From an uncultured virus (IMG/VR IMGVR_UViG_3300027631_000013) (Duplodnaviria; Heunggongvirae; Uroviricota; Caudoviricetes), in IMG/VR virus record IMGVR_UViG_3300027631_000013: DNA of 64,000 bases, one strand, 5' to 3'. A program made the translations under genes and the position numbers. This document shows positions 1,148 through 37,789 of the stretch, in pieces. Under the pieces are notes generated by a model that saw only the letters and a program-made list of their open reading frames with translations, was not told the origin of the DNA and did no database searches. Each line of letters starts with the position of its first letter. Within the stretch, counting starts at the first letter, position 1.

Positions 1148-1531
1148 ATGGATTTCTTACTTAACGACCAGCAAATACATGACACTTGGATCAAAATTGC
1201 AAGTTCTTCTGAAATATTGAAAAGCAGTATCCCAGTGCCAAACGATGTTGCTAAAATGGCGGAAAAAGCTTACGACAATAGACACAATTCTGATGTTAAC
1301 TTTGGCAATTCTGATATGTTTGAAATTGCCAGATCTCTTAAAAACAGATCCAGTATTCCCCTCTCATTAGTCTTAGAGATTCATAAATATACAGTGAAGT
1401 ATAGATACAGGCATTCAGACAGTAAAAAAGTTGCTTCATATTGGGAGTGGCAACTTTATGGTGGCGAAGCTGGCAGAAAGTGGTCAGAATCTATAGTAAG
1501 AGCATATATTCCTAAAGAAGTAAGAAATTAA
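1148..1531 (+). CDS. Phage hypothetical protein (WxLxGGxAGxxW-type domain)
   Basis: 127 aa; C-terminal WEWQLYGGEAGRKW resembles a small domain common in phage head-related genes; WIKIAS near the N-terminus. Confidence 0.7.
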   Translation: MDFLLNDQQIHDTWIKIASSSEILKSSIPVPNDVAKMAEKAYDNRHNSDVNFGNSDMFEIARSLKNRSSIPLSLVLEIHKYTVKYRYRHSDSKKVASYWEWQLYGGEAGRKWSESIVRAYIPKEVRN

Positions 1532-1574: not shown

Positions 1575-2336
1575 ATGAAAGTAGCAATAGTCCTTACTGG
1601 TATCGCAAATGGTAAAGTTGACGATACATCTGGGTTTGATATACCTAGAAACTTTAAAAACTGTTTCGATAATATACAAGAAAAGTTGATTGGGCCTTTT
1701 TCTGAAAGATATGAAACAAAGCTTTATATGACCACTTACGATATGTTCAATGCCAAAGAAGTGGTTGAAGCATACAATCCCCATAAATATCAGCTCTTGC
1801 CTTATGGTGGCTCTGCAGAAATTACCACCTATATCAAAAGTATGGAAATGCTGCTTGATGAAGATGTTGATTTTATTGTCGCCACCAGATTTGACATTTT
1901 ATTTAGAAGCAAGATTGTTGATTGGGATTTGAAGTTTGAAAAGTTTAATGTATGTTTTAAAGAAGGCAATTATAGTGTAACTGAATGCATTCCATTAAAC
2001 TTTACTGATTGTTCTATATTCATGTTCCCTAAGAAATATCTGAAATCTTTTATCATTGCTTTAAAACAAACATTTGCTTTCCACCCTCAACCGTTTTTCA
2101 GAAAGAATATGCACCCAGTTACTTTCAATTTCTCTAAAGTTATGGGGAAACATGCAGTTCATTTCCTATCTAAGAAAATGCATATTTCTTCACAAGAGAA
2201 CTCTTTCTTTTTCTTATATAGGCAAAAAGTTGATAAATATGGGTTGAACTATGTTTTGCCAGACCTAGATTTACCTCAAGTTTTAGATGATACACTACTA
2301 AGAAAATTCCCAACAATTGATAGAGTTAACTTATGA
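1575..2336 (+). CDS. Hypothetical protein, probably glycan-related
   Basis: MKVAIVLTG start and VDFIVATRFDILF motif, a type often seen in phage sugar clusters; overlaps the start of the dehydratase gene. Confidence 0.55.
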   Translation: MKVAIVLTGIANGKVDDTSGFDIPRNFKNCFDNIQEKLIGPFSERYETKLYMTTYDMFNAKEVVEAYNPHKYQLLPYGGSAEITTYIKSMEMLLDEDVDFIVATRFDILFRSKIVDWDLKFEKFNVCFKEGNYSVTECIPLNFTDCSIFMFPKKYLKSFIIALKQTFAFHPQPFFRKNMHPVTFNFSKVMGKHAVHFLSKKMHISSQENSFFFLYRQKVDKYGLNYVLPDLDLPQVLDDTLLRKFPTIDRVNL

Positions 2337-3286
2337 AAATTGTTTATATCACTGGTTGCTTAGGTTTTATTGGTTCTTACGTAACCACTCTATGCCTTGA
2401 AAGAGGTTGGTATGTTTATGGAATTGATAAATGCACCTATGCTTCAAACTTAAAAAAACTAGATTATTTCAATCAATTTGATAATTTTAAGTTTGAAAAT
2501 AAGGATATCCATGAGATAGACAGATTGGTTGATTGTGATTATATTATTAATACAGCTGCTGAAACTCATGTAGATAATTCAATAAGGAAAAGTGATGTAT
2601 TTTTTCAATCAAACATTTCTGGTGTTTATCATCTTGTTGAGTTATTGAGATCATATTGTAAGGAAAGTCAAGTTTTTCCAACTTTGATTCATTTCAGTAC
2701 AGATGAAGTTTATGGTGATATTAAATCTGGTGAGCATATCGAAACAGATTTACTAAAACCAAGTAATCCATATTCTGCTACAAAAGCTGCTGCAGATCAA
2801 TTAATTTTGGCATGGGGAAGAACTTACAACATTCCTTACAACATTATCCGCCCTACAAACAACTATGGAATTGGTCAGTATGTTGAAAAATTAATTCCTA
2901 AATCATGTAAATATCTCACTTTAAATCGTCAAATACCTTTGCATAATCACGGTCTACCCATCAGAAACTGGTTACATGCTAAAGACACTGCTAGGGCTGT
3001 TCTGTCTGTTATTGATTCTGGTGTTGAAAATGAAATCTTTAATGTTGCTGGAGGATTTGAACAAAGCAACATTGATACAGTAAAGAAAATTATTAATTCT
3101 TATTTTGGAGAGCAAATTGATGATTACGAAAAGTATTTAAACTTTGAAATATCAAGAGCTGGACAAGATGTAAGGTATGGAATTAATGATGATAAAATTA
3201 GAGCGTTAGGTTGGAAGCCTGAAGCAATTTTTGATGAAGAAATTAGTCATATTGTTAATTATTACAAAAAGGTTTTTGTATGGTAA
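2333..3286 (+). CDS. rfbB: dTDP-glucose 4,6-dehydratase (extended SDR)
   Basis: TGCLGFIG Rossmann motif, AAETHVDNS, STDEVYG, PSNPYSATKA (YxxxK), NNYG, EKLIP, RNWLH, RAGQDVRY. Confidence 0.9.
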   Translation: MKIVYITGCLGFIGSYVTTLCLERGWYVYGIDKCTYASNLKKLDYFNQFDNFKFENKDIHEIDRLVDCDYIINTAAETHVDNSIRKSDVFFQSNISGVYHLVELLRSYCKESQVFPTLIHFSTDEVYGDIKSGEHIETDLLKPSNPYSATKAAADQLILAWGRTYNIPYNIIRPTNNYGIGQYVEKLIPKSCKYLTLNRQIPLHNHGLPIRNWLHAKDTARAVLSVIDSGVENEIFNVAGGFEQSNIDTVKKIINSYFGEQIDDYEKYLNFEISRAGQDVRYGINDDKIRALGWKPEAIFDEEISHIVNYYKKVFVW

Positions 3287-4122
3287 CTAAAAGAGTTCTA
3301 ATTACAGGAGGGAATGGATATATTGCAAGAAATACCATTCCCTTTTTATCTGAATATGATTTAACAGTTTTGACAAGAGAAAAACTTGATTTGTTAGATT
3401 CTGAAAAAGTTAAAGAGTTTTTTCAAGATAAGGTTTTTGATACAGTCATTCACACAGCTACATATGGCGGGTACAGAACTCAAAAAGACGATCCAGAATG
3501 GGTTTATAAGAATGTAGCAATGTTTTACAATCTTATGAATTGTCAATATAGTTTTAAGCAAATTATCAATCTCTCTTCTGGGGCGCAATTTGACAGAAGA
3601 TACCCGATAGATGATACGAGATTTCTTCATCATTCTTTCCCAATAGACCCATATGGATTAAGTAAAAACATAATTACTAAAGTTGGCAGAGATTCAAACA
3701 AGTTTAAAAATTTCATCATTTACAATATTTTTAATCACGATGAACCAGATACCAGAATGATTAAAAATAACATAAAGAGATATATTAACAAACAACCATT
3801 GACTATATTTAAAGATCGCAAAGTTGATTTTTTCTTTATGGATGATTTTGTCACTTTACTCAAGCATTATATTGACAGTGATAAAACCTTAACTTTTGAA
3901 TTAGATTTGTGTTACTCTAGAAAATATTATCTTAGTGAAATTGCAAATATTATCAACAGTTTGGGTGAGCATTATGTTGATATTAATATAGAAAACAATA
4001 ATCAAGATTTGCCTTATATTGGTAATGGCGACAAAATAGTAAGAAGTAATTTACCTTTTATTGGCTTAGTCGATGGTATAACTCTTACATATAACAAACT
4101 ATTAGAGGCAAAGAATGTTTAA
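3280..4122 (+). CDS. NAD-dependent epimerase/dehydratase (SDR)
   Basis: VLITGGNGYIA, SSGA, PYGLSK (YxxxK). Confidence 0.85.
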   Translation: MVTKRVLITGGNGYIARNTIPFLSEYDLTVLTREKLDLLDSEKVKEFFQDKVFDTVIHTATYGGYRTQKDDPEWVYKNVAMFYNLMNCQYSFKQIINLSSGAQFDRRYPIDDTRFLHHSFPIDPYGLSKNIITKVGRDSNKFKNFIIYNIFNHDEPDTRMIKNNIKRYINKQPLTIFKDRKVDFFFMDDFVTLLKHYIDSDKTLTFELDLCYSRKYYLSEIANIINSLGEHYVDINIENNNQDLPYIGNGDKIVRSNLPFIGLVDGITLTYNKLLEAKNV

Positions 4123-5326
4123 AAAAGATTGCAGATGTTGCGAAGGAACTAATCTAAAGTCTGTCATTGATTTTGGAATTATCCCTTTAGCTAATAACCT
4201 TTTAGATTCTTTCATTGAAACAGAGAAATCTTTTCCCTTAGAACTTATGTATTGTGAAGACTGTCATAATTGTCAACTTTCATACAGTGTAGATTCTAAA
4301 GTTATGTTTGATAATTATTTGTATGTTTCATCTACAACTGAACAGATGAGACTTCACTTCAAATATGCAGCTACTAAAATCGTTGAAGAATACAAGCTTA
4401 ATTCAGACAGTTTAGTGGTTGAGATTGGTTCTAATGATGGTGTTTTTCTTTCACCAGTACAAGATAAAAATGTAAAAATCTGTGGAATTGAACCTGCTAA
4501 AAATATCTCTGCCTTAGCAAATGAAAAAGGCTTACACACATATAATGGATATTGCGACCAAGAAGCAGTAGGGTATGTTTTAAGTAATTTTGGTAAAGCA
4601 GATGTTGTCACTGCCTTCAATGTTTTTGCCCATGCAGATAATTTGAAACTAATTCTTGACAGTGCTTTTGAAATGTTAAAAGAAGATGGGGTCTTTATTG
4701 TTGAAAATCAGTGGCTTCTTAAAACAATGCACGACTTGACTTTTGACAATATCTACCATGAGCATTTTAATTATTGGTCAGTTACGTCTATGAATAATTT
4801 TGTTAAACGTAATGGATACTATGTGCAAAAGGTTGAACGTTTTAACACTCATGGTGGTTCTATCAGAGTTCATATTTCAAGAAAAGAAGTTAAAAGTGAT
4901 TCTTTGTATCATTTTTTAGAGCTTGAAAATTGCCATGGATTAACTACTTTTGAAGCATATGAAAGATTTGGAAAAAACATTCAGAAGTGCAAAAGAAACA
5001 CTGTAGCTGCTTTTGATGAATTACAAGCAAAATATGGCAAAGTTGTAGGTTATGGTTCGCCAGCTAAAGCCACTACACTATTAAATTATTTTGGCATTGA
5101 TCATAATTATTTGTCATTTATTATAGAAGACAATCCATTGAAGTTTGAAAAGATTGTTCCAGGTATCAAAGTTAAAATCACCAGTAAAGAATTGGCTGAA
5201 AAGATTGTTCCTAAAGCAATTGTTGTTTTTGCTTGGAACTTTTATGACGAGATCTTGAAAAACAATAAGGTTTTTACAGACATGAACGTACCGTTTTTTA
5301 ATATTAAGGATTTACAAAATGGCTAA
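4115..5326 (+). CDS. SAM-dependent NDP-sugar C-methyltransferase
   Basis: N-terminal Zn motifs CRCC and CEDC, VEIGSNDG, NVFAH, FDNIYHEH, THGGSIR, GYGSPAKATT, AWNF. Confidence 0.9.
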   Translation: MFKKDCRCCEGTNLKSVIDFGIIPLANNLLDSFIETEKSFPLELMYCEDCHNCQLSYSVDSKVMFDNYLYVSSTTEQMRLHFKYAATKIVEEYKLNSDSLVVEIGSNDGVFLSPVQDKNVKICGIEPAKNISALANEKGLHTYNGYCDQEAVGYVLSNFGKADVVTAFNVFAHADNLKLILDSAFEMLKEDGVFIVENQWLLKTMHDLTFDNIYHEHFNYWSVTSMNNFVKRNGYYVQKVERFNTHGGSIRVHISRKEVKSDSLYHFLELENCHGLTTFEAYERFGKNIQKCKRNTVAAFDELQAKYGKVVGYGSPAKATTLLNYFGIDHNYLSFIIEDNPLKFEKIVPGIKVKITSKELAEKIVPKAIVVFAWNFYDEILKNNKVFTDMNVPFFNIKDLQNG

Positions 5327-5996
5327 TGAATTGATGGGTGTAAAGTTTGATTTGTTTTGCCCAGCTAATAATTATGAGCAGCAGAACATTGTTGTAGAAC
5401 ATTTGGCGAATCAGGGTTTTGAGTGCAAGAAGTTTGATGGTGCCAATTATCCTTCATGGGCTAAAATTGTAAATGAATGTATGGAGCAATGTGAATCTGA
5501 CATCTTCTTTTACATCTCCCATAAAAACAGACCAAACAGAGAGCAAATAATTAAAACTATTTCTTTATTAAAATCTGGATATGGAATTGCTGGAATGTTT
5601 GATATGACTTTCCATGGCATTAATTTAGATGTAATTAGAAAACTGGGTCCATATGATGAGAGATTTTTAAATGGTGGATGGGAAGAAGTTGATATGTTTT
5701 GGCGATGCTGTGAAAATAATATCGCTGTGTATACTAATCAAGAATCCTATTACACTTGGGAAAAAAGCACTTGGCAATATGGTGGATTTCCTCATTACAA
5801 AAAGAAATGGTTAGAGCCACAAGGTGATAATTATTTAAATAGATTGTTAGACGAAGAGAAATATAATTATAATTTTGGTTCGTCTAAGAGTTCTAAGTTT
5901 TTACCTTGGACAGAATCTTTTATCCGAGGGCAAGAAGAGAATAAGAACAATTATAGAGATTGGAAGGTTATGAAGAAAAACTCTTTCTTCTTGTAG
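5319..5996 (+). CDS. Putative GT-A (GT2-like) glycosyltransferase
   Basis: SWAKIVN and IRKLGPYDERFLNGGWEEVD match the GT2 GxFDExF..ED pattern. Confidence 0.6.
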   Translation: MANELMGVKFDLFCPANNYEQQNIVVEHLANQGFECKKFDGANYPSWAKIVNECMEQCESDIFFYISHKNRPNREQIIKTISLLKSGYGIAGMFDMTFHGINLDVIRKLGPYDERFLNGGWEEVDMFWRCCENNIAVYTNQESYYTWEKSTWQYGGFPHYKKKWLEPQGDNYLNRLLDEEKYNYNFGSSKSSKFLPWTESFIRGQEENKNNYRDWKVMKKNSFFL

Positions 5997-6426
5997 GTGA
6001 TTCTTAATAATTTGTTGTAAAAAGTAATTGAAAGCAATTTCAATTTTGGTTTGCGGTGGCTTAACATCGTTAGATAATCAAAGGGATAAAGTAATTCTCT
6101 ACTACTCCCGCCATGAAAATGGTCAGTTAAGCAAGCCTAGTTTCTGTGAGTTTCAGGTCCGAAGCCTGGAAATATGGAGTAAGATGAGAACTATAAGGCA
6201 GCAATCTTATTAGTTCTAGCAAACATCGATACCTAAGAAACAAAGGGTAGTTACAGGGTCCGAGAATCACGGTTAAGGGCTTTGTAGCAGATTGAAAGGT
6301 AAAACGGAGTTTGTATACCGGATTAATCTTGAAAATCGGTCAAGTAATCTTCGTGGAGATGAAAGACATGAAGTGGGTTAGTTTTTGAGTAAAAAACTAA
6401 CAAGATGCGCCCACTTCGGTAGAGAA

Positions 6427-6522
6427 GGGCATAGCTCAATTTAGAGCACCGCACAAAAGCGTTGATGTTGGTTTGGAGTAATTAAAGTAACAAAAGCATA
6501 AGTTACAAATACCAACTGCCCA
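6427..6522 (+). other. Degenerate tRNA-like cloverleaf inside the large RNA
   Basis: GGGCA/TGCCC acceptor-like stem, TAGCTCAATTTAGAGC D-arm, CGC-ACAAAA-GCG arm, GTTGGT/ACCAAC T-stem with a ~38-nt insertion in place of the T-loop. Confidence 0.6.
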
Positions 6523-6768
6523 TAAAATTAGACGTGTCTTGCATTAGCAGTAAGCAGTGAATGTTGAGAGAAGGTTTGCATAATTTAGATTATATTCTCT
6601 TAAATGAATAGTTTGCGAACGCATATTCCAAATTATTCACTCTCAATAGAAGCTAATGTTAAACTGGACAGCCGCCAGTATAAAAGGACACTGCGTAGCT
6701 TGACATAAATGTGGACAAACACTTAGAGTATATGATGCGGATATTTTACAGTGTCACGAAGCTACACA

Positions 6769-6799
6769 CCCTGGAATTAGTCTCATTCCAGGGTTTTTT
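6769..6799 (+). terminator. Intrinsic terminator
   Basis: CCCTGGAAT (6769-6777) / ATTCCAGGG (6785-6793) followed by T6. Confidence 0.85.
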
Positions 6800-6816
6800 C
6801 ATTTTATAAAGTAAGT

Positions 6817-7620
6817 ATGTTAGCTACTTATTTAATTTCCACCAACAAAAATCGTCCACAACTAAAAGTTCCATTTGCTACAAAAATGGTTTGCTTGCAT
6901 AATTTTTTAGAAGTATTCAAAAACGAAAGAATATTTATTTTTGCTGATAATTGTGATGAAGAGACGTTAGACTATCTTTTATCTTTAGACTTGGAAATGC
7001 ACTCTGGAACTTATGGCTTATATCATTCTCAAGTAGCTTTATATGAAAAAATACTAGAGATGAAACTTGATCCTCTTGAAATTATTTATTGTTCTGAAGA
7101 TGATTATTTACACCAGAAAAATGCACCAGAAATTATCAAAGACGGCTTGACATTTGCAGATTATGTTACACTATATGATCACCCAGACAAATATTCAAAC
7201 TTATATCGATTTGGTGAAACAGTTAAAATTAGAAGATCTTTTTACACACATTGGAAAAACACAATATCTACTTGTATGACATTTGGTTTCAGATACAAAA
7301 CTTTATGCGAAGACATTAATATTTTAAGAGAATATCCAAAAACTCTAGACCATAATATGTTTATTAATTTGAAACAGAATAGCAGATATCTTTATTCTTC
7401 TATTCCTGGTCATTGTTGCCAGATGGATAGATTTATGAATTCTGATAAGGCTAACATTACAGAAAAATGGGCTATAGAAATCTTGATTAATGAAGGTTTA
7501 TCTCAGCTTACAGAACTAAAATTAAAAGAGTATGATAATATAAGTTTTGATGAAAATCAATTTTATCAGAAACTTTATTGGATTGATGGTGCTCTAAAAA
7601 GTGAGGAAAAAGATGAATAA
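6817..7620 (+). CDS. Putative GT-A fold glycosyltransferase
   Basis: IFIFADNC, IIYCSEDDYLH (DxD-like), DYVTLYDHPDKY, STCMTF. Confidence 0.65.
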   Translation: MLATYLISTNKNRPQLKVPFATKMVCLHNFLEVFKNERIFIFADNCDEETLDYLLSLDLEMHSGTYGLYHSQVALYEKILEMKLDPLEIIYCSEDDYLHQKNAPEIIKDGLTFADYVTLYDHPDKYSNLYRFGETVKIRRSFYTHWKNTISTCMTFGFRYKTLCEDINILREYPKTLDHNMFINLKQNSRYLYSSIPGHCCQMDRFMNSDKANITEKWAIEILINEGLSQLTELKLKEYDNISFDENQFYQKLYWIDGALKSEEKDE

Positions 7621-8056
7621 ATGGTTTTTTAGTTTAGTATTATTGTCATTTGGTGCATCGGCTTTTGCTCAAACTCCACAACTTGCAAATCCATTCAATT
7701 ATTACAAGTCGGACAATATTTTTAAGACAGATATTGATGTGAAGCCAAAGAAGTTACCTAACCTTAGCTTTAATGTCAAATCAGCAAATCTTAACGGAGA
7801 TTTGTCAAGATCAGAAGAGCATAAAGTTTCTGGACAATATAGCACTAAAGTATTCGGTGGTAATGCTGGATTAAAGTTCACCAATAATAAAGACTTTCTC
7901 ACACAAAGCATTAACCAAAGTGTTGATTTAAGTTATGGATTGAATGGTCCTTTTGCAAAATTATCTTTTACTGTCAATGCATTCAATAATCAACCACTCA
8001 TAGGTCAAGCAAAAAATAATACTTTAGCTGAGTTGAAGGGTACCATTTCTTTTTAG
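7613..8056 (+). CDS. Secreted protein, possible small outer-membrane beta-protein
   Basis: GAGGA RBS then ATG 7613; Sec signal MNKWFFSLVLLSFGASAFA|Q; alternating beta-strands; terminal Phe (ELKGTISF). Confidence 0.6.
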   Translation: MNKWFFSLVLLSFGASAFAQTPQLANPFNYYKSDNIFKTDIDVKPKKLPNLSFNVKSANLNGDLSRSEEHKVSGQYSTKVFGGNAGLKFTNNKDFLTQSINQSVDLSYGLNGPFAKLSFTVNAFNNQPLIGQAKNNTLAELKGTISF

Positions 8057-8079
8057 GTTAGCGTGTATAATTCAGTATT

Positions 8080-9003
8080 ATGAATAATATTGGAAATGGC
8101 GCAAGCTTTAAAAAGAAGAACAATCATACTCAAGATACCGAAAGAGCACTGACAGCTGGTATTTATTCTTGGATTGACGATAATAAAAATCTAGTTCTCA
8201 TTGCTCAAAGATTAGCTAACTTAACTCTTGAATTAGGTCTTTGTGATACTAATGCTCATAATCCATTCCAAATTGTCCCTACAGATCTTTTTGCAGAAAA
8301 TGGTAATCTGCACCATGAACTATTCCTAAATATTGATCATGCAGCTTGGGGTTATTTTAGAATCCAAATCGAGTCTGAATACAAGTTTAATGTAGTAGAA
8401 CCTAAGTTAATCAATTCTTCTGACACATCCTTAATTTGTATATCAGAGTTAGAAGTAGAACAATACATTAAGTCATTAGCTGAAACATTGGATAATCACT
8501 ACAAGCTTCTTGATTTGTTAGAAGAGAGTAAGTTAGAAGAAGCTCAAAGTATCTTGGATGCAGCTTTGTCCACTTACCATCATTCAATTATCGAGCCCTT
8601 ATCTAATATCAAAACAATTGTAAGCTTCTATAATGGGGAAATTGTAATAAAGGCTACTAATGATGAGGCAACTACTCAATCTATCAAATCTATGGAAACT
8701 AGGTATGATTTAGCCCTTTTACATCCTGAAAACTGGGTTGTTACAAAGAGTGATGGAATCAACGGTCAAGAATGGTTATCTTCTCATTTGAAGTCATTCT
8801 TTGTAGTTGAGAGTAAAGCTGCATCCCTTCTTTATCTTTATCAAAAACTTATCAAAGATGCTGGTTTTAAGTTGATTGTCCACACTGATTCCGTAGAGCC
8901 TGAAACTGATTTGACTGGAGAAGTTTTAAGAGATGATGCCTTAAACTTGACACTCGTTAGACCTGTAATTCATGCAACAAAATTAGAAATACAAAATGGA
9001 TGA
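8080..9003 (+). CDS. Hypothetical protein
   Basis: 307-aa ORF preceded by GTGTATAAT (-10-like); no motif recognised. Confidence 0.7.
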   Translation: MNNIGNGASFKKKNNHTQDTERALTAGIYSWIDDNKNLVLIAQRLANLTLELGLCDTNAHNPFQIVPTDLFAENGNLHHELFLNIDHAAWGYFRIQIESEYKFNVVEPKLINSSDTSLICISELEVEQYIKSLAETLDNHYKLLDLLEESKLEEAQSILDAALSTYHHSIIEPLSNIKTIVSFYNGEIVIKATNDEATTQSIKSMETRYDLALLHPENWVVTKSDGINGQEWLSSHLKSFFVVESKAASLLYLYQKLIKDAGFKLIVHTDSVEPETDLTGEVLRDDALNLTLVRPVIHATKLEIQNG

Positions 9004-10342: not shown

Positions 10343-10871
10343 AATAAATAAAGAAGCTCTTAGATTATACGATTTGCCTGCAAAACAATTGGCACTAAGG
10401 TCTTTAAAACTAAAATATCCCGAATCTAGGTTTTCTTACAGAATTGTTGAAACATTTCAATTTGGAGATATTATTATGACAGAAAAGAGCACTGGCCAAG
10501 AGTATCTTGTTGAAGTTGAAGCTAGAAATGAAAGAGACCATCCAAAAAACATGATTGGAGCTTTTCCAGAAGTCAACATAACTTTAAAAAATAATCTTGA
10601 GAGTTTACATAATGAAGGCAAAAAAGGTTTTTGTATTTCAGTAAATATGGATGACCTTGACAAAGAATATGCAAGTGCTTTTTATATAACTATGTTGAAA
10701 GATATTGCCGTTGCCCCAAAAAAGAAATCATATAATTGGCGAGGCGGCTATGATGAATATTTCTTTAAATTAAGAAATGATCAAGCACAAAGATTTAAAC
10801 TTGATCAATCCACATCTAAGTATGTAAAAATTAATTTAACACATGAGAGAAAAAATGATTACTATAACTGA
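10308..10871 (+). CDS. Putative PD-(D/E)xK-like nuclease
   Basis: GAGG RBS before ATG 10308; FGDII...YLVEVEAR pattern. Confidence 0.4.
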   Translation: MDIELNKNGRAKINKEALRLYDLPAKQLALRSLKLKYPESRFSYRIVETFQFGDIIMTEKSTGQEYLVEVEARNERDHPKNMIGAFPEVNITLKNNLESLHNEGKKGFCISVNMDDLDKEYASAFYITMLKDIAVAPKKKSYNWRGGYDEYFFKLRNDQAQRFKLDQSTSKYVKINLTHERKNDYYN

Positions 10872-11241
10872 AACGGCTGCTGAAATTATCCTAGACACTA
10901 TCGATGCTCAAGAAATGGAAAATGTATATCTTGAGTTGCGAATAACTGGTGGCGGTTGTTCTGGATTACAATATGCTTTAGGGCTTACAGAACTAGATGA
11001 TATTGGTATTGATGAAGTTGTCCATGAAAGTAATGGAATAAAGATTCTCACCACTCTTAAAGAATTAAAGTATGTCGATGGTAGTGTAATTGATTATGTT
11101 GACATGCCTATGGGTAAGGGTTTTAAAGTAAATAATCCACAAGCCACTAAATCATGTGGTTGTGGATCTTCATTCTCTACTGATGATGATGATATTTCTG
11201 AACTCAATGAAGGCAAGGGTTGTGGTTCTTGTAAGAGTTAG
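10855..11241 (+). CDS. iscA: A-type Fe-S cluster carrier (HesB/IscA/ErpA family)
   Basis: ITITETA, GGGCSGLQY, IDY...GFKVNNPQATKSCGCGSSF; extra C-terminal GCGSC. Confidence 0.9.
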   Translation: MITITETAAEIILDTIDAQEMENVYLELRITGGGCSGLQYALGLTELDDIGIDEVVHESNGIKILTTLKELKYVDGSVIDYVDMPMGKGFKVNNPQATKSCGCGSSFSTDDDDISELNEGKGCGSCKS

Positions 11242-11504
11242 TTTCTTCCTTTAGTGAAAAATCTTTTAAACTTTCTATCTGGATCTGACAATTCTCTAAC
11301 TTTATCTAAATGTTTGCCTTGCTCATGGGGCGGTATGACATTTATATTTAAGAAAACATCATAAAAAAACATTAAAATGTCTAGGCTTAAAAACCTAGAC
11401 ATTTTAATGTTTTTAATGAATTGTGACAAAAAAGCAGTTCTTAAAATCCATCTCTCAACTTCATCTTTTCTTACTTTGTTTGCAAGTTCTTTTGTTAAGT
11501 TCAT
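11238..11504 (-). CDS. Hypothetical protein
   Basis: 88 aa, last gene of a tightly packed minus-strand run. Confidence 0.55.
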   Translation of the reverse strand: MNLTKELANKVRKDEVERWILRTAFLSQFIKNIKMSRFLSLDILMFFYDVFLNINVIPPHEQGKHLDKVRELSDPDRKFKRFFTKGRN

Positions 11505-11506
11505 TA

Positions 11507-11878
11507 TTACATCATATGCAATCTATATTTGGTTTGATTCAATATAGCAAGCATTTCGTCTCTAATATTTAATAAATCAGTGTCTGCGTCATCCAATCTT
11601 TGTGGAACAATATTTACAAGATATTCTACAAACTCATCAATAAATGCTTCTGGATTCTCATCTAAATTGTGAAGTGCAATATTGAAAGTACCATTAGCCA
11701 TAAGCTTGCCTTTCTTGCCTTGATAAATCTCAATGAAATCATCAATTAATGGGTCTAATTCATCGTAAGCAGTACCAAAGGCTTCGTGTTGTGCAAAAGA
11801 CCCTGGATTCTTCTGTGTTTGCCAATGAAAAACACGCATTTGATTCTGCAATGTCAAGAAGTTTGTGATATAATTCAT
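11507..11878 (-). CDS. Ferritin/Dps-like four-helix protein (phage type)
   Basis: FHWQT...SFAQHEAF..YDEL..LIDDFIE ferroxidase-like pattern; DLLNIRDEM. Confidence 0.8.
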   Translation of the reverse strand: MNYITNFLTLQNQMRVFHWQTQKNPGSFAQHEAFGTAYDELDPLIDDFIEIYQGKKGKLMANGTFNIALHNLDENPEAFIDEFVEYLVNIVPQRLDDADTDLLNIRDEMLAILNQTKYRLHMM

Positions 11879-12555
11879 TTTTCTAATCCTTCATAACGTT
11901 TTGAAATAAACTCCCAATTGATTATTTTGAACCAATTAGTGATATATTTCTCTCTGTTGTTTTGATATTTGAGATAATAAGCATGCTCCCAAACATCACA
12001 CCCTAATAATGGTGTACCACATTTTTCAATATATGGATTTGATTGATTTTTAAAACCTTGCACTTTAAGCTTCTTACCATCTGTGCAAAGCCAAACCCAA
12101 CCAGAGCCAAAGTGCTTAACTCCAACATCAATAAACTCTTTCTTAAAATTATCATAGCTACCAAATTGTTTATTGATATCTTCTGCTAATTTTCCAGATG
12201 GTTTTTGATTTGTAGTCGAAGACATTGAAATCCAGAAATAAGAATGATTAAAATGTCCACCAGCATTATTTAAAAATGCCTCTTGATCAGCTTTAGCTAC
12301 CTTTGGATCCATAAGTAAATCTATCAAATGGTTATCTTTAAGGCTTGGTTTTTTGTCTAAGATTTCATTCATCTTTTCGACATATTTTTTATGATGCTTG
12401 CCATGGTGTATTCTCATAGTGTTAGCATCAATCACTGGTTCCAAAGCTTCAAATCCATATGGTAATTTAGGTAAGTCATAACCACATTCAAAATCTTGCT
12501 CAATTGATTTTGAAGAGAGTTTGGTTAAGTCTAGATAAAAATTATTGAATCTCAT
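11875..12555 (-). CDS. sodA: Fe/Mn superoxide dismutase, Mn-type signature, with ~25-aa N-terminal extension
   Basis: LPKLPY, HHGKHH, NNAGGHFNHSYFW, FGSGWVWL, NQ, DVWEHAYY. Confidence 0.92.
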   Translation of the reverse strand: MRFNNFYLDLTKLSSKSIEQDFECGYDLPKLPYGFEALEPVIDANTMRIHHGKHHKKYVEKMNEILDKKPSLKDNHLIDLLMDPKVAKADQEAFLNNAGGHFNHSYFWISMSSTTNQKPSGKLAEDINKQFGSYDNFKKEFIDVGVKHFGSGWVWLCTDGKKLKVQGFKNQSNPYIEKCGTPLLGCDVWEHAYYLKYQNNREKYITNWFKIINWEFISKRYEGLEK

Positions 12556-16591: not shown

Positions 16592-17186
16592 TCTTGAAAA
16601 GTGGTTTTGGAAGTTATTATCTACTAAAGGATCTGATTTTAGTGCTTTAACTGTTAAGAAGCCTGGCCCTGTAATGGTAGAAGCAGCAGAAGACGCAGAT
16701 ACAGATGAAGTATTGTCAGTGAGAGAAAATGGTAGTAACGCTGGAAAATATGTTTCTGAATATTTGAAAGCTGTAGGGTTGGGGCCTGGACATCCTTGGT
16801 GTATGGCTTTTGTAGTATTTAGAATTATTAAAGCTGCACATAGAACCATGGTAAATATTCCAGCTGTTATGCCTCGTACTGGTGCCGTTGCTGTTTTTGG
16901 AAAATGGGCACAAAAAGATGGTCATTTTATTAGACGTGCTGATCTTGAACTAGGTAAAGCTGTTCCAATGAAAGGCGATGTAGTTGTGTATTGGTTTGCT
17001 TCAAAAGGTAGACTTGCTCATGCTGGTATTGTTGTAGATGGTGGTAAAACATTCTATACAGTGGAAGGCAATACATCAAGCGGAATTGAAACTAGTGTTG
17101 ATAGAGATGGTCAAGGAACATACAAGAAACTACGCAAATATTCTCATTTAGGAATCTTTGGTGGAATTATTAGACTTCCATATTAA
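16584..17186 (+). CDS. CHAP-domain peptidoglycan hydrolase (candidate endolysin)
   Basis: VRENGSNAG..V.EYL..VGL..G.PWCMAFV, GDVV, HAGIV, TVEGNT. Confidence 0.85.
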   Translation: MNNLEKWFWKLLSTKGSDFSALTVKKPGPVMVEAAEDADTDEVLSVRENGSNAGKYVSEYLKAVGLGPGHPWCMAFVVFRIIKAAHRTMVNIPAVMPRTGAVAVFGKWAQKDGHFIRRADLELGKAVPMKGDVVVYWFASKGRLAHAGIVVDGGKTFYTVEGNTSSGIETSVDRDGQGTYKKLRKYSHLGIFGGIIRLPY

Positions 17187-18018
17187 TAATCAAAAATTCT
17201 TCTTTAAACACAGATTTAGATTCTGCAACCACAAGTCCATTCTCATCTACTATTTGAGATTTGCCTTGAAAAAATAAGCCAGGAATAATAAATCCACAAC
17301 AGTAAGGCCGTATTATTGCAATGTTGTTATCTTTAGCTCTTTGCAATTGCGGTCTTTCTGTTTTTTCATCAAAGGGATAATGTGGCCAAGGTCTCCATCC
17401 ACTAGAAGGAGCCACTATATAATCTGCCCCTTTTTCTTTCATTTCTTTAATAATATAATCGTGGTTGAGATCATAACAAATTACAGCACCAATATTACCC
17501 TTAGATGTTTTAATTGGGTCTGATTCTGTATTTGATTTTACACCCCAAGATATTTCTAAAGGCACTAATTCTTGCTTTAAATATTCTCCAACAAATTCGC
17601 CATTGTCAAAAACCAAAGAAGAATTGTATATATCCCCATTTCTTTGAACATAAATAGAACCAGCAACAACTACGACATTGTATTTTTTAGATAATTCAGA
17701 AAATGTTCTTCTTATCACTCTTTCTATTTTGTTTTGAGAGAGCCATTTACCCATCTTATCTAATTTGATTTTTGATAAGATGATGTCAGATAATTTTTCA
17801 AGGAACGATTTAAATGAAGATTGTTTTACAGGAGCAGTTTCTTTTACCCAAGCAAGACAAAAGCTGATATCCTCTGGGAACACGAGGACATCAGCTTTAT
17901 GCTTAAACGAGTTTATTCTAAATATTCTTTCAATAAAATTAAAGAATGCTTTTTCTGTAAAACATTGAGCCATATTTAATTGTATGGCTGCAATTTTTAC
18001 TAGTTGTTTCTGATCCAA
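17170..18018 (-). CDS. Carbon-nitrogen hydrolase (nitrilase superfamily)
   Basis: KIAAIQL, VLVFPE (Glu), YNSS, YLK (Lys), VICYD (Cys) triad, GKSQIVD. Confidence 0.88.
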   Translation of the reverse strand: MDQKQLVKIAAIQLNMAQCFTEKAFFNFIERIFRINSFKHKADVLVFPEDISFCLAWVKETAPVKQSSFKSFLEKLSDIILSKIKLDKMGKWLSQNKIERVIRRTFSELSKKYNVVVVAGSIYVQRNGDIYNSSLVFDNGEFVGEYLKQELVPLEISWGVKSNTESDPIKTSKGNIGAVICYDLNHDYIIKEMKEKGADYIVAPSSGWRPWPHYPFDEKTERPQLQRAKDNNIAIIRPYCCGFIIPGLFFQGKSQIVDENGLVVAESKSVFKEEFLIINMEV

Positions 18019-22485: not shown

Positions 22486-23204
22486 TATTGAGGTACCTCC
22501 AATCCGCCTGCCCCTGCTATGACAAATCTACCTTTAAATGAATCATAATTATTTTTTATGTCTGCTGCTGTTAAGGCACTTCTATACAGTCTTACTATCG
22601 CTATATTTCCAGCAAAAGTATTAGTTGCGCCAGAATTATTTCCTATAAAATCATTGCCAGTATATGAAGATGGAGATGTAATACTGCTTGAGCCTATACT
22701 TGCCCCATTAACATAAAAAGTTGCAGTGCCAGAGCTAAATGACAAAGCTACTTGTTGCCATGCATTCAAAGTAATACAGTTTCCAATTCTTGCAGAGAAA
22801 CCAGATACTGCGTATGTGTTTAACTGTAAGCCTGCTGTTACTGTGCTGTTATCCAATGAAAATATAAAACCAGTAAGTGAGCCTGATGAATGTTGAAATA
22901 TTCTTCCAGAGTTGCCTTCACCATAACCTGTAGGGTAAATCCATGCTTCACATGTCCAAGAAGTAGTAACATTTCCACCATTTGTTGTACCCAAGTTGAC
23001 CAAGCTTGTAGTTCCATTAAAAGTTAAAGCTAGAGTGCCACCAGATCCAGTTAAAGTACAAGAAGTTAATGCTCCTACATTATTAAATGTTGAAACATCA
23101 AACCAGTTAGAACCACTACCAGGATATGATCTAACATTTGCGGCATCTACATTTAAACATAGCAATTCATATGAAGTTATTGATGGATTATAAAATTGTC
23201 CCAT
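22485..23204 (-). CDS. LamG/concanavalin-A-like domain protein
   Basis: DAANVRSYPGSG.WFD, TCEAWI, FYVNG, YRSALT..DI..NY; second Met taken as start. Confidence 0.8.
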   Translation of the reverse strand: MGQFYNPSITSYELLCLNVDAANVRSYPGSGSNWFDVSTFNNVGALTSCTLTGSGGTLALTFNGTTSLVNLGTTNGGNVTTSWTCEAWIYPTGYGEGNSGRIFQHSSGSLTGFIFSLDNSTVTAGLQLNTYAVSGFSARIGNCITLNAWQQVALSFSSGTATFYVNGASIGSSSITSPSSYTGNDFIGNNSGATNTFAGNIAIVRLYRSALTAADIKNNYDSFKGRFVIAGAGGLEVPQ

Positions 23205-37066: not shown

Positions 37067-37789
37067 TTATAAAGAATATCTTACTCTTAATGCATTATAA
37101 TTTTGCTTTATTTCATTATCAGACATATTTCTTGCATACATATAAACTCCAGCGATTCTAAATGTGCCGAATTCTTGAGTACCGTTTGCATTAGAACCAA
37201 AAGTCATTCTTGTTACTAAAGCATAATTAAAAGGATCTGAAGCAATTGATGATGTAGATTCTTGAACACCGTTGACAAAATATTGAGTAGAAACACCATT
37301 CGTCCATCTTATAGTTATAATTTTAAAATCATCATTTGCTGTTTGAAGAACACTAGTTGAATACATACCAGATGGACTGCCCCTATACCAAAGTCCATAT
37401 CTACTTTGATCACATGAAGCAAGACAAAAATAAGTTGAAAAATCTACATTTGTAGCTTCTCCTGCATTACAAGCCATAATCCTCGAACAGCTACCAAAAC
37501 CATTATTATTGATACTGGACATGACGATAAATATAGTTGCGTTTCTTCCAAAGTCTTGAGTGTAAGAGCCATTTCTTATGATATTTTGGCCACTATCAGC
37601 ACGTACGTTGAAACAGGTAGTATTTTTATGAGTGGTGAAAGATGGTGAATTATTTAAAGTAAAATTATAGTTATTACCTGAAACGTCATACCAAGTGTTA
37701 CCAGTTCCAGGATAAGATCTACTGTTTGTGGCATCTAAAGCAAGCATTAGGCCTGTAGGATTTATATTTGGGCTTACAATTACTGCCAT
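37067..37789 (-). CDS. LamG-like protein
   Basis: LDATNSRSYPGTGNTWYD...FVNG...EIKQNY. Confidence 0.8.
   Translation of the reverse strand: MAVIVSPNINPTGLMLALDATNSRSYPGTGNTWYDVSGNNYNFTLNNSPSFTTHKNTTCFNVRADSGQNIIRNGSYTQDFGRNATIFIVMSSINNNGFGSCSRIMACNAGEATNVDFSTYFCLASCDQSRYGLWYRGSPSGMYSTSVLQTANDDFKIITIRWTNGVSTQYFVNGVQESTSSIASDPFNYALVTRMTFGSNANGTQEFGTFRIAGVYMYARNMSDNEIKQNYNALRVRYSL

What the first reader, a model, noticed from the sequence alone, without database searches (positions are those of the whole stretch)
6026..6799. A ~770-nt ornate non-coding RNA gene inside the glycosylation cluster
Seen: this is the only large ORF-free gap, and nearly all of it pairs. Helices: AATTGAAA-GCAA-TTTCAATT (6026-6045, GNRA loop); GCTTAAC 6059-65/GTTAAGC 6126-32; CCAT-GAAA-ATGG (6111-22, GNRA loop); 6151-57/6165-71; AGAACTA 6187-93/TAGTTCT 6211-17; a 12-bp helix with four G-U pairs 6250-61/6277-88; CTTGA 6328-32/TCAAG 6340-44; long-range AAGACATG 6363-70/CGTGTCTT 6533-40 enclosing GAAGTGGG/CCCACTTC and TTAGTTTTT/AAAAACTAA; GCATTAGC 6541-48/GCTAATGT 6652-59 enclosing 6562-70/6640-48 and 6605-15/6629-39; ACTGG/CCAGT 6663-79; then a pseudoknot and an intrinsic terminator. 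G-U pairs, GNRA loops and the T-tract all point to a plus-strand RNA. Known: GOLLD (~800 nt) and ROOL (~600 nt) are phage-associated giant RNAs of unknown function, reported to form multimeric cages. Inference: this is a member of such a class or a new one; I cannot assign the family by eye.
Basis: partly seen in the sequence, partly recalled or inferred. Interest (0 to 1): 0.92.

Follow-up and report, generated by a model that had tools for sequence, protein, structure and literature searches.

The report
New giant structured RNA of jumbo phages
The gene-free gap encodes a roughly 750-base, intricately folded non-coding RNA that is kept at one fixed place in a group of very large freshwater phages and matches no catalogued RNA family, so it looks like a new class of giant phage RNA whose job is still unknown.

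Summary
Window 5997-6816 has no conserved ORF. It holds one plus-strand RNA gene (conserved core about 6045-6805) that ends in an intrinsic terminator (6767-6794 plus a T run).

- **Family.** Pattern scans found 64 further loci with a homologue. The 50 distinct full-length copies, the window's included, are 727-807 nt long and 60-100% identical.
- **Structure.** On their alignment, 125 predicted pairs are 99.2% canonical. 59 pairs show compensatory double changes, against 8-13 when partners are slid. A 6-bp pseudoknot also covaries.
- **Strand.** 12.8% of paired cells are G-U, which fixes the strand.
- **Known families.** Rfam 15 gives nothing, including the GOLLD, ROOL and intron models. Four literature searches found no description.
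- **Transcription.** Contigs from four RNA libraries of four studies hold 6073-6765.
- **Context.** The RNA sits at a fixed core locus, between a 127-157 aa basic protein and a small secreted barrel-like protein. The carriers are jumbo phages (316-kb and 358-kb contigs). The sugar-gene cassette around it is an insertion particular to this window.
Most helices are confirmed; two are wrong, and the 5' hairpin lies outside the conserved core.

Function is inferred only. I think it is a stable, trans-acting structural RNA that binds a partner or self-assembles, as GOLLD and ROOL do.

The parts
6045..6805 (+). Conserved core of the RNA gene; the only copy in the window
   Evidence: A family profile built from alignment A1 matches window 6045-6805 (E 9e-153) and nowhere else in the 64 kb. 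The window query matched all 62 loci then held; 56 of them are full length.
6013..6025 (+). Promoter-like -10 region. It is weak in the window (TAAAAA at 6018-6023) and stronger in relatives.
   Evidence: Within 20-60 nt upstream of the conserved CGGTGG, 32 of 49 members have an exact TATAAT, 8 have TATAAG, 6 have TATAAA and 3 (the window among them) have TAAAAA. Three members show a full TTGACA-16/17-TATAAT. The consensus hexamers are recalled. The transcription start was not measured.
6026..6045 (+). Window-specific hairpin AATTGAAA-GCAA-TTTCAATT, in the leader/promoter zone
   Evidence: It is present in the window's MFE fold. It is not conserved in the upstream alignment of relatives.
6059..6132 (+). 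5' domain. Helix 6059-65/6126-32 closes a junction of three hairpins: 6066-68/6073-75, 6083-86+6091-92/6104-09 and 6110-14/6119-23.
   Evidence: Helices 2-6 are 97-100% paired, with double changes in 5 pairs. The block 6098-6126 is invariant partly by construction, because it was the search pattern.
6135..6248 (+). Domain 2. Helices 6135-38/6245-48 and 6140-45/6236-41 enclose hairpin 6151-57/6165-71, helices 6176-77/6232-33 and 6183-86/6224-27, and a variable hairpin at 6187-6217.
   Evidence: Helix 8 has 5 of 6 pairs with double changes. The variable part folds better than shuffles (z below -1) in 72% of members.
6173..6177 (+). Near-invariant TATGG strand. Together with CCTAAG at 6232-6237 it resembles the 11-nt GAAA-tetraloop receptor.
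   Evidence: The columns are invariant or nearly so. GG pairs with CC. The receptor consensus is recalled from memory. The local topology is a three-way junction, so the match is unproven.
6250..6288 (+). 12-bp hairpin with a conserved 16-nt loop
   Evidence: Helix 12 has 7 of 12 pairs with double changes and is 99% paired. Several G-U pairs are invariant.
6290..6367 (+). Helices 6290-93/6334-37, 6296-6300/6326-30, 6305-07/6318-20 and 6339-41/6365-67
   Evidence: Helices 13-16 are 99-100% paired, and 9 of their 15 pairs show double changes.
6370..6539 (+). Central domain. It holds hairpin 6378-86/6394-6400, the long-range helix 6403-09/6533-39 and helix 6427-30/6518-21 around a variable insert. 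The invariant GAAGTG 6370-75 / CACTTC 6412-17 could add a pseudoknot.
   Evidence: helix 17 has 6 of 7 pairs with double changes, and helix 18 is 100% paired. For GAAGTG/CACTTC, 6 pairs are canonical in all 50 sequences: 5 never vary and 1 varies on one side in a single sequence, so there is no covariation for or against.
6541..6659 (+). Helix 6541-48/6652-59 enclosing a length-variable, structured insert of 71-141 nt across the family
   Evidence: Helix 21 has 4 of 8 pairs with double changes. The insert folds better than shuffles (z below -1) in 96% of members, median z -2.8.
6554..6559 (+). 5' strand of the pseudoknot; it pairs with 6689-6694
   Evidence: The 6 pairs are 100% canonical in 50 sequences, and 3 pairs show double changes (9, 14 and 9 sequences). 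Slid controls give 0-2 such pairs.
6663..6679 (+). Hairpin ACTGG/CCAGT with a conserved loop
   Evidence: One pair is G-C in 23 sequences and A-U in 27; the helix is 99.6% paired. Its loop and 3' side could instead pair with 6055-58, as RNAalifold proposed. That alternative has no double changes.
6689..6694 (+). 3' strand of the pseudoknot
6695..6765 (+). 3' domain: helix 6695-6701/6759-65 enclosing hairpin 6727-31/6741-45
   Evidence: Helix 22 has 2 pairs with double changes and helix 23 has 4 of 5. The RNA-library contigs end at 6740-6765.
6767..6800 (+). Intrinsic terminator: stem 6767-76/6786-94 followed by a T run
   Evidence: The consensus scan found it at 6768-6794. All 9 stem pairs show double changes across the family.
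1148..1531 (+). Context gene 'UP' (127 aa, basic, no known family). In relatives its homologue ends right at the RNA's promoter.
   Evidence: 47 of 62 loci have a homologue directly upstream on the same strand. There are no Pfam or PHROG hits. The AF2 model has pLDDT 82.6 and no PDB match at E <= 0.001.
1575..5996 (+). Sugar-modification cassette inserted between UP and the RNA in this window's phage only. It includes two epimerase/dehydratases and a C-methyltransferase.
   Evidence: Pfam hits. It is absent from this position in the two jumbo-phage records and in the nearest relatives.
7601..8056 (+). Context gene 'DN' (151 aa; signal-peptide-like N-terminus, C-terminal F). In most relatives it is the first gene after the RNA.
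   Evidence: 33 of 62 loci have a homologue just downstream; alignment A3. The outer-membrane barrel reading is my inference from the sequence pattern.

Best explanation
**What is shown.** Window 6045-6805 (+ strand) is a gene for a large, highly structured non-coding RNA.
- The RNA belongs to a family of 727-807-nt RNAs that matches no catalogued RNA family.
- The family sits at one fixed core locus of a lineage of jumbo phages (316-kb and 358-kb contigs). The runs that hold this window's own copy are labelled lake, freshwater, estuary and marine.
- It has about 24 covariation-supported helices in a string of domains.
- It has at least one covarying pseudoknot and many invariant unpaired nucleotides.
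- It ends in a covarying intrinsic terminator.
- Contigs from RNA libraries hold it.

**What is inferred from sequence.** The RNA is transcribed on its own from a sigma-70-type promoter. That promoter overlaps the end of the upstream gene. This suggests host RNA polymerase makes the RNA, probably early in infection.

**Mechanism, inferred only (about 0.3-0.35).** The RNA is a stable, trans-acting structural RNA. It folds into a compact tertiary architecture and works by binding: either it binds copies of itself, or it sequesters or scaffolds a macromolecular partner during host takeover. That partner could be the host translation or RNA machinery, or the small basic phage protein encoded just upstream. 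This is how the phage RNAs GOLLD and ROOL are thought to act.

**My odds.** A real, independently folded ncRNA family: about 0.95. Undescribed so far: about 0.8.
For: **Structure.**
- 125 RNAalifold pairs on 50 distinct sequences are 99.2% canonical. Shuffles give 92.0%, and 0 of 500 reach the observed value.
- 59 pairs show changes on both sides. Shuffles give 37 +/- 2.5 (0 of 500), and slid partners give 8-13.
- The covariation score is 0.306, against 0.04-0.08 when slid.
- The pseudoknot 6554-59/6689-94 is 100% paired, with 3 of 6 pairs doubly changed.

**Strand.**
- 799 of 6228 paired cells (12.8%) are G-U.
- The terminator stem covaries in 9 of 9 pairs.
- A TATAAT-like box is present upstream in 49 of 49 members, and exact in 32.

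**Not coding.**
- No column is covered by an open stretch of 60 or more codons on the + strand in more than 28% of sequences.
- Variability shows no 3-base periodicity: 0.561, 0.548 and 0.541 for the three phases.

**Selection.**
- RNA identity between the window and the far clade is 61-64%.
- The flanking DN protein is only 23-28% identical and UP is 37-66% identical.

**RNA evidence.**
- 6 runs on record as RNA hold 53-78% of the stretch's sampled words.
- In 4 runs from 4 studies, contigs 95-100% identical to the window cover 6073-6765.
- Contigs of two studies both start at 6084, and three end at 6756-6765.
- Further contigs in those libraries match only the conserved cores and then diverge, so they are relatives of the family.

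**Independent gene.**
- The gene downstream differs between clades: DN, a 267-aa gene, or the homologue of 8080-9003.
- The position is fixed in a syntenic backbone shared by the window and both jumbo records.

**Not a known family.**
- No Rfam match reaches gathering score on the 64-kb window.
- At E up to 10 on the region, only noise appears.
- 20 diverse members give no match inside the RNA.
- The GOLLD and ROOL models give no match at E <= 1 in the two jumbo records that hold the RNA.
Against: **Function and partners.**
- Nothing here shows function, partners or oligomeric state.
- I found no conserved self-complementary loop of 6 nt or more that would suggest kissing-loop self-assembly.
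- Unlike GOLLD and ROOL, the RNA is not near tRNA genes. The window has none, and in the 358-kb record the nearest is at least 55 kb away.
- UP has no recognisable RNA-binding family or fold.

**Limits of the RNA evidence.**
- It comes from assembled contigs only, so ends, strand and level are not measured.
- One RNA-library contig ends at 6073 next to adapter letters. That site is inside a supported helix, so processing or fragmentation is unresolved.

**Other limits.**
- The window's own -10-like box is weak (TAAAAA).
- Every sequence in the alignment came from one pattern in the 5' domain, so that block's invariance is by construction. One further member, L073, came from a different block but was not aligned. 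More distant members may have been missed.
- The shuffle control ignores relatedness. The slid control does not have that flaw.
Confidence: 0.55

Rival explanations
1. It is a large ribozyme. The conserved unpaired nucleotides and pseudoknots would build an active site that processes itself or cuts or joins other RNAs (phage or host tRNA, mRNA or rRNA) during infection.
For: Many invariant single-stranded positions sit at junctions. There is a covarying pseudoknot. The size and domain complexity are typical of group I/II introns and RNase P (established knowledge). The carrier phages encode tRNAs: 9 in one record and 5 in the other. One RNA-library contig ends sharply at 6073, next to adapter letters.
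Against: No Rfam ribozyme or intron model matches. No split host gene flanks it. The ends look like a promoter and a terminator rather than splice or cleavage sites. The 6073 end comes from a single contig in a single run.
Confidence: 0.15
2. It is the RNA subunit of a ribonucleoprotein formed with the small basic protein encoded directly upstream (UP; window 1148-1531), comparable to OLE RNA with its Oap proteins.
For: A UP homologue lies immediately upstream on the same strand in 47 of 62 loci. The median pI of UP is 9.0. The RNA's promoter overlaps the end of UP. Both are retained in the window even though a 4.4-kb cassette has been inserted between them.
Against: The whole neighbourhood is syntenic, so adjacency may only reflect conserved gene order. 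UP has no RNA-binding family or fold match. In the window the two genes are separated by 4.5 kb, so close linkage is not required.
Confidence: 0.15
3. It is a very long cis-acting leader or attenuator that controls the downstream genes through its terminator.
For: It ends in a terminator 20-50 nt ahead of a co-oriented gene in nearly all loci.
Against: The downstream gene differs between clades while the RNA stays. The terminator stem is a plain, strongly covarying hairpin, and I saw no alternative pairing for it. About 700 nt of conserved structure is far beyond any known leader.
Confidence: 0.05
4. It is a very divergent member of GOLLD or ROOL that the Rfam covariance models fail to recognise.
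For: It is phage-encoded, ornate, of similar length and found in lake waters. GOLLD was first found in lake metagenomes and has a variable 5' half (passages of PMC12286853 seen).
Against: There is no match to RF02032 or RF03087 at E <= 1 in the records that hold the RNA. There is no match to any family in the window or in 20 diverse members. It is not next to tRNAs.
Confidence: 0.03
5. It is not an RNA gene at all, but a decayed protein gene, a mobile-element remnant or a DNA-level site such as a replication origin or packaging site.
For: It is a gene-free stretch next to an inserted cassette in the window. On the - strand, up to 66% of members have an open stretch of 60 or more codons over part of it.
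Against: Compensatory changes that keep G-U-tolerant pairing are not expected for DNA sites or dead genes. No ORF is conserved across clades and there is no codon periodicity. The region has no internal repeats of note, and its position and length are fixed across the family. The stretch is present in RNA libraries.
Confidence: 0.02

Closest known systems
GOLLD RNA (Rfam RF02032)
   Same: It is phage-encoded, several hundred nucleotides long and made of many helices with pseudoknots. It occurs in lake and other aquatic metagenomes, its function is unknown, and it is a stand-alone gene with its own ends. GOLLD is reported to form an RNA-only nanocage (PMC12286853, passages seen).
   Different: The GOLLD covariance model does not match. 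This RNA is not near tRNA genes, while GOLLD often is. It is conserved along its whole length with two variable inserts, rather than having a conserved 3' half and a variable 5' half. Its carriers are jumbo phages of one syntenic lineage. Its oligomeric state is unknown.
ROOL RNA (Rfam RF03087)
   Same: It is a large ornate RNA of phages and prophages with multiple pseudoknots, no known protein partner and very high abundance where measured. ROOL forms a homo-octameric cage (PMC12286853, passages seen).
   Different: The ROOL model does not match. The sequence and helix layout are different. There is no tRNA-island context. The runs that hold the window's copy are labelled lake, freshwater, estuary and marine rather than gut, rumen or Lactobacillales.
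OLE RNA with its Oap proteins
   Same: It is a roughly 600-nt ornate RNA that is highly expressed and works with small dedicated proteins encoded next to it. That model fits the UP-RNA pairing seen here.
   Different: OLE is bacterial (extremophilic Firmicutes), not phage-borne. Rfam gives no match. Whether UP binds the RNA is untested.
Group I/II introns and RNase P RNA (large ribozymes)
   Same: The size is comparable. The RNA has a multi-domain architecture, long-range helices and pseudoknots, GNRA-type loops and a strand pair resembling a tetraloop receptor (motif recalled).
   Different: No Rfam intron or RNase P model matches. There are no flanking exons or split gene. The RNA is bounded by a promoter-like box and a terminator.

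Membership tests
GOLLD (RF02032) | Match to the family covariance model (conserved 3' core) | tested here: not met
   There is no match at gathering score on the window. There is none at E <= 10 on 5900-6900, none at E <= 1 in 20 family loci, and none at E <= 1 in the two jumbo records that hold the RNA.
GOLLD (RF02032) | Frequent location beside tRNA genes or islands | tested here: not met
   The 64-kb window has 0 tRNA genes. In the 358-kb record the tRNAs lie at 133-137 kb and 172-176 kb, while the RNA is at about 231 kb.
GOLLD (RF02032) | Encoded by phages or prophages | tested here: met
   Virion-protein PHROG hits in the window. Members lie on 316-kb and 358-kb viral contigs. Synteny is shared between them and the window.
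GOLLD / ROOL | RNA-only homo-oligomeric cage | not testable with these tools
   This needs native gels, mass photometry or cryo-EM of the transcript. I found no conserved palindromic loop of 6 nt or more.
ROOL (RF03087) | Match to the family covariance model | tested here: not met
Group I / group II introns | Match to the intron models, and interruption of a host gene with recognisable exons | tested here: not met
   There are no Rfam matches. The flanking ORFs are complete, separate genes that differ between clades.
Stand-alone bacterial/phage ncRNA gene | Conserved secondary structure supported by compensatory changes | tested here: met
   59 of 125 pairs show double changes, against 8-13 when slid; 99.2% of cells are paired. 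The pseudoknot is also supported.
Stand-alone bacterial/phage ncRNA gene | Own promoter and intrinsic terminator | tested here: inconclusive
   The terminator is found and covaries. A -10-like box is conserved: exact TATAAT in 32 of 49 members. The transcription start is not mapped, and the window's own box is weak.
Stand-alone bacterial/phage ncRNA gene | A discrete transcript | tested here: inconclusive
   Contigs of 4 RNA libraries from 4 studies cover 6073-6765. Contigs cannot give ends, strand or level.
11-nt GAAA tetraloop receptor (motif recalled) | TATGG and CCTAAG strands facing each other in a continuous helix, with a GAAA loop partner | tested here: inconclusive
   Both strands are near-invariant, and GG pairs with CC. 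They sit at a three-way junction. The base after CCTAA covaries with 6144 rather than with the T of TATGG. No GAAA loop is conserved across the family.

The most novel reading that the evidence does not exclude
This is the founding member of a third, unrelated class of giant phage RNAs. It would be a core component of a cosmopolitan aquatic jumbo-phage lineage, made in large amounts by the host polymerase. It would either assemble into an RNA-only quaternary structure (a cage or ring, as GOLLD and ROOL do) or be a new large ribozyme acting on host RNA. Either way it would be an RNA machine used for host takeover with no protein counterpart.
Probability: 0.3. Interest if true: 0.95.

Novelty: categorically new. 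Interest (0 to 1): 0.88.

Why it matters
Very few natural RNA classes longer than 500 nt have complex conserved folds. They are the rRNAs, group I/II introns, RNase P, OLE, GOLLD, ROOL and a few more. Each has revealed either catalysis or unexpected architecture, and GOLLD and ROOL were recently shown to build RNA-only cages.

This RNA adds a new class, and it comes with much of what is needed for experiments:
- 50 distinct sequences that give a covariation-backed secondary structure with a pseudoknot.
- Defined gene boundaries.
- A conserved neighbour protein that can be tested as a partner.

It is a core gene of a jumbo-phage lineage, and the window's own copy recurs nearly unchanged in 14 DNA runs labelled lake, freshwater, estuary or marine. 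That makes its role in infection an ecological question as well.

It also shows that a plain read of raw sequence can pick out such genes. The sugar-gene context that drew the eye is incidental.

Tried and rejected
**Homologue searches that found nothing useful.**
- blastn (word size 11) against 50,697 GenBank phage records: no match.
- Relatives of the flanking proteins 5319-5996 and 6817-7620 in viral contigs: none, and one distant hit, with no RNA there.
- Eight loci around relatives of the C-methyltransferase (about 50% identical): no homologue of the RNA by nhmmer or blastn. The sugar cassette and the RNA are therefore not linked.
- A third block pattern on viral contigs returned only the 358-kb contig again.

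**Own genome.** No genome is held for this window.

**Cover in the RNA-library contigs.**
- The contigs left 4000-6072 and 6766-9000 uncovered, apart from a 157-nt contig at 7847-8003 in one run and a poor 39-nt match in another.

**tRNA-remnant idea.** A D-arm-like string lies near 6431-6447. I dropped the idea because ARAGORN finds no tRNA, Rfam finds none in the region, and the string lies in a variable insert.

**CsrB-like sponge idea.** I dropped it by eye and ran no test. I counted six or seven GGA motifs in the consensus, which is about what my own estimate from base composition gives, and most of them lie inside stems.

**RNAalifold helices I do not accept.**
- The long-range helix 6055-58/6673-76 has no double changes and overlaps the covarying hairpin 6663-79. 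I left it as a possible tertiary contact.
- The 3-bp helix 6414-16/6422-24 competes with the invariant GAAGTG/CACTTC pairing. I dropped it.

**UP protein.** No Pfam or PHROG family, no PDB fold match at E <= 0.001, and only 'hypothetical viral protein' clusters in the Atlas at scores below 0.9.

**Phage lineage.** The T4 Gp23 Pfam model found nothing in the two jumbo records, and its controls did not ring either, so this says nothing. I therefore do not call the phage T4-like.

**Wrong accessions.** Two Rfam accessions I recalled for GOLLD were wrong: RF01998 is a group II intron piece and RF01687 is Acido-Lenti-1. The right one is RF02032.

**Host.** The one hit in bacterial genome contigs is a 5.8-kb contig of a MAG labelled Rickettsiaceae. 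It carries the same UP-RNA-DN phage synteny. It is most likely a mis-binned phage fragment and gives no host.

**Earlier findings of this scan.** Nothing was returned.
Full report
**The region.** Window 5997-6816 lies between two + strand ORFs (5319-5996 and 6817-7620). It holds only short ORFs of 43-61 aa. As RNA, the + strand of 6000-6800 folds at -217.5 kcal/mol, against -180.5 +/- 6.4 for 20 dinucleotide shuffles (z -5.75). The - strand gives z -3.91. A consensus scan finds one intrinsic terminator, at 6768-6794 followed by a T run, on the + strand.

**Known families.**
- Rfam 15 gives no match at gathering score anywhere in the 64 kb.
- With permissive filters on 5900-6900 it gives only five matches at E 1.1-8.3. 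All are eukaryotic snoRNA or lncRNA families far below their thresholds.
- blastn against 50,697 phage records finds nothing.

**The replicon.** It is a large tailed phage.
- Many ORFs match PHROG virion-protein families.
- One matches cyanomyovirus structural proteins at 42-45% identity.
- The window holds a 4512-aa ORF and no tRNA genes.
- The genes just upstream of the gap are two NAD-dependent epimerase/dehydratases and a C-methyltransferase.

**How relatives were found.**
- Searches through the flanking proteins and through the methyltransferase gave no locus with a similar RNA.
- The run index showed the 821-base stretch held almost letter for letter in 14 DNA runs labelled lake water, freshwater, estuary, marine or simply metagenome. 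All 14 are flagged as possible sources.
- Six runs on record as RNA hold 53-78% of its sampled words. In all, 20 holding rows come from 15 studies.
- I laid four RNA-library runs from four studies on window 4000-9000. Contigs 95-100% identical to the window cover 6073-6765. Two studies start at 6084, and ends fall at 6740-6765.
- Other contigs match only short cores (6080-6112, 6121-6156, 6142-6187, 6293-6366) and then diverge. That pointed to a family of related RNAs and told me which blocks are conserved.
- These are assembled contigs. They show presence in RNA libraries, not ends, strand or level. The bare flanks are not counted as evidence.

**The family.**
- A pattern from two conserved blocks found one 358-kb viral contig and 61 metagenome loci.
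- nhmmer with the window as query matched all 62. 56 are full length and 6 are cut by contig ends.
- With the window this gives 57 full-length copies and 50 distinct sequences of 727-807 nt.
- They form 17 clusters at 90% identity. The minimum pairwise identity is 60%.
- The window is identical to two loci, 78-79% identical to eight, and 61-64% identical to the rest.
- A second pattern from another block added a 316-kb viral contig with a full-length member.
- The bacterial genome collection gave one hit, on a 5.8-kb contig of a MAG labelled Rickettsiaceae. That contig carries the same phage gene order.
- The window has a single copy, at 6045-6805.

**Structure.** On the MAFFT alignment A1 (50 sequences, 928 columns), RNAalifold predicts 126 pairs, 59 of them with compensatory double changes. 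I then counted the structure, leaving out one isolated pair, so 125 pairs in 24 helices.

| Measure | Observed | Shuffled (500) | Partners slid 1-3 columns |
|---|---|---|---|
| Cells forming a standard pair | 99.2% | 92.0% (0 reach it) | 38-45% |
| Pairs changed on both sides | 59 | 37 +/- 2.5 (0 reach it) | 8-13 |
| Cells changed on both sides | 521 | 137 | 19-84 |
| Covariation score | 0.306 | 0.161 | 0.04-0.08 |

- The shuffle control ignores relatedness. The slid control keeps it, and the contrast remains.
- My own scan for stacked, covarying pairs outside that structure found two more elements. One is a 6-bp pseudoknot, window 6554-59 with 6689-94, which is 100% canonical with 3 pairs doubly changed. 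The other is the hairpin 6663-67/6675-79, where one pair is G-C in 23 sequences and A-U in 27.
- 12.8% of all paired cells are G-U, which would be A-C mismatches on the other strand. Together with the terminator, whose 9 stem pairs all covary, this fixes the + strand.
- The two long variable inserts still fold better than shuffles in most members. The insert inside 6541-6659 does so in 96% of members (median z -2.8). The small one at 6187-6223 does so in 72%.
- No ORF is conserved and variability shows no codon periodicity.
- The helices in window coordinates are listed under 'parts'.

- Two are not: 6328-32/6340-44 and 6363-70/6533-40. They compete with covarying alternatives.
- The rest lie in invariant or unalignable parts.
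- The 5' hairpin 6026-6045 is particular to the window and lies in the leader or promoter zone.

**Ends and promoter.**
- 20-60 nt upstream of the conserved CGGTGG start of the core, 32 of 49 members carry an exact TATAAT, 8 carry TATAAG, 6 carry TATAAA and 3 (the window among them) carry TAAAAA.
- Three members with a different upstream gene show a full TTGACA-16/17-TATAAT.
- I infer transcription by the host sigma-70 polymerase, which in large lytic phages usually means early expression. This is inference; no start site was measured.

**Context.**
- In 47 of 62 loci the gene directly upstream, on the same strand, is a homologue of window 1148-1531 ('UP'). It is 127-157 aa with a median pI of 9.0.
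- In 33 loci the gene just downstream is a homologue of window 7601-8056 ('DN'). It is about 152 aa, with a signal-peptide-like start and a C-terminal F, so it looks like a small outer-membrane barrel. That would imply a diderm host.
- The two viral records (358 kb and 316 kb; CheckV estimates 89% and 88% complete) share a long syntenic backbone with the window around the RNA. The backbone includes UP, the RNA, the homologue of 8080-9003, an IscA-like protein, DUF5856, superoxide dismutase, a CN-hydrolase and the 516-aa protein.
- The window is therefore a piece of a jumbo phage of this lineage.
- The sugar cassette 1575-5996 and the 267-aa gene 6817-7620 are insertions beside an RNA that stays in place. 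The 267-aa gene is also found in the nearest relatives; the sugar cassette is absent from this position in them.
- UP has no Pfam or PHROG family, no PDB fold match and no informative Atlas neighbour.
- tRNA genes exist in both records but lie at least 55 kb from the RNA in the 358-kb one.

**What it is.** With about 0.95 confidence it is a real, independently folded, plus-strand ncRNA gene. It is a core gene of this phage lineage and is under stronger constraint than its protein neighbours. RNA identity to the far clade is 61-64%, against 23-28% amino-acid identity for DN.

**Membership tests.**
- The GOLLD (RF02032) and ROOL (RF03087) models give no match at E <= 1 in the records that hold the RNA.
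- No Rfam family matches the window or 20 diverse members. The one hit in those 20 loci is a sub-threshold hammerhead match outside the RNA.
- The RNA also lacks the tRNA neighbourhood typical of GOLLD and ROOL.

**Literature.** Four full-text searches found no description.
- Of PMC10690425 I saw passages only. Its candidates average 67 nt, and I did not open its supplements.
- Of PMC12286853 I saw passages.
- Of PMC12619734 I saw the outline and abstract only.

**How it most likely works.** Nothing here measures function.
- The features are the hallmarks of RNAs that work through a precise three-dimensional shape. They are a string of seven or so domains, many invariant unpaired bases at junctions, at least one pseudoknot, a strand pair resembling a tetraloop receptor (motif recalled, unproven), its own promoter and terminator, and presence in RNA libraries of several studies.
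- My best guess (about 0.3-0.35) is a stable trans-acting scaffold or sequestering RNA used in host takeover. It might self-assemble as GOLLD and ROOL do, or act together with UP.
- A ribozyme (0.15) and an RNP with UP (0.15) are live rivals.
- A cis-acting leader, a hidden GOLLD/ROOL member, or a non-RNA element are each unlikely, for the reasons given under the rivals.

**Limits.**
- Every sequence in the alignment came from one 5'-domain pattern, so that block's invariance is partly by construction, and distant members may be missing. One further member, L073, came from a different block but was not aligned.
- The alignment is sequence-based and poor in the variable inserts.
- No phylogeny-aware covariation test and no whole-length covariance model could be run here.
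- RNA ends, strand and abundance rest on contigs only.
- The host is unknown.

Noticed in passing
window 1575-5996: A sugar-modification cassette sits between UP and the RNA. It holds a 253-aa unknown protein, two NAD-dependent epimerase/dehydratases, a C-methyltransferase with a zinc-binding N-terminal domain, and a 225-aa unknown protein. It is absent from this position in the two jumbo-phage records and in the nearest relatives, so it looks like a recent insertion. The methyltransferase's closest relatives (about 50% identical) are on other large uncultured phage contigs.
   Followed up: partly
window 37067-41789 (- strand): Seven tandem genes of 213-240 aa with abutting starts and stops are paralogues of one another (27-41% identity by blastp). 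Only the first, 37067-37789, was scanned, and only against Pfam; it has no family.
   Followed up: partly
window 23188-36726 (- strand): A single 4512-aa ORF lies in the virion-gene block. I did not analyse it.
   Followed up: no
window 41792-63786 (- strand): A run of large paralogous virion structural proteins shares PHROG families 24074, 8510 and 15727, which are also found in cyanomyoviruses such as S-PM2. The T4 Gp23 Pfam model found nothing in the two related jumbo records, but that search's controls also failed.
   Followed up: partly
window 10843-12555 and 17170-18018: The phage carries auxiliary genes: an IscA-like Fe-S assembly protein, DUF5856, an Fe/Mn superoxide dismutase and a carbon-nitrogen hydrolase. 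All are conserved in synteny in both jumbo-phage records.
   Followed up: partly
window 7601-8056 and alignment A3: The conserved gene after the RNA encodes a protein of about 152 aa. It has a signal-peptide-like N-terminus, alternating polar and hydrophobic segments and a terminal F, so it looks like a small outer-membrane beta-barrel made by the phage. Identity is only 23-28% between the window and the other clades.
   Followed up: partly
L072 (genome contigs): A 5.8-kb contig in a MAG labelled Rickettsiaceae bacterium carries the phage's UP-RNA-DN module, and its RNA is 97% identical to L038, L047 and L071. It is probably a phage fragment binned into an AT-rich MAG.
   Followed up: partly
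L013 639-708: There is a sub-threshold match to the hammerhead HH9 model (22 bits against a gathering score of 52; E 0.51), about 700 nt upstream of the RNA in one locus. It is most likely noise.
   Followed up: no
window 6073 (run X15): One RNA-library contig ends exactly at 6073 and continues into sequencing-adapter letters, so many fragments ended there. The site is inside a supported hairpin. It may be a processing site, a reverse-transcription stop or a fragmentation hot spot.
   Followed up: no
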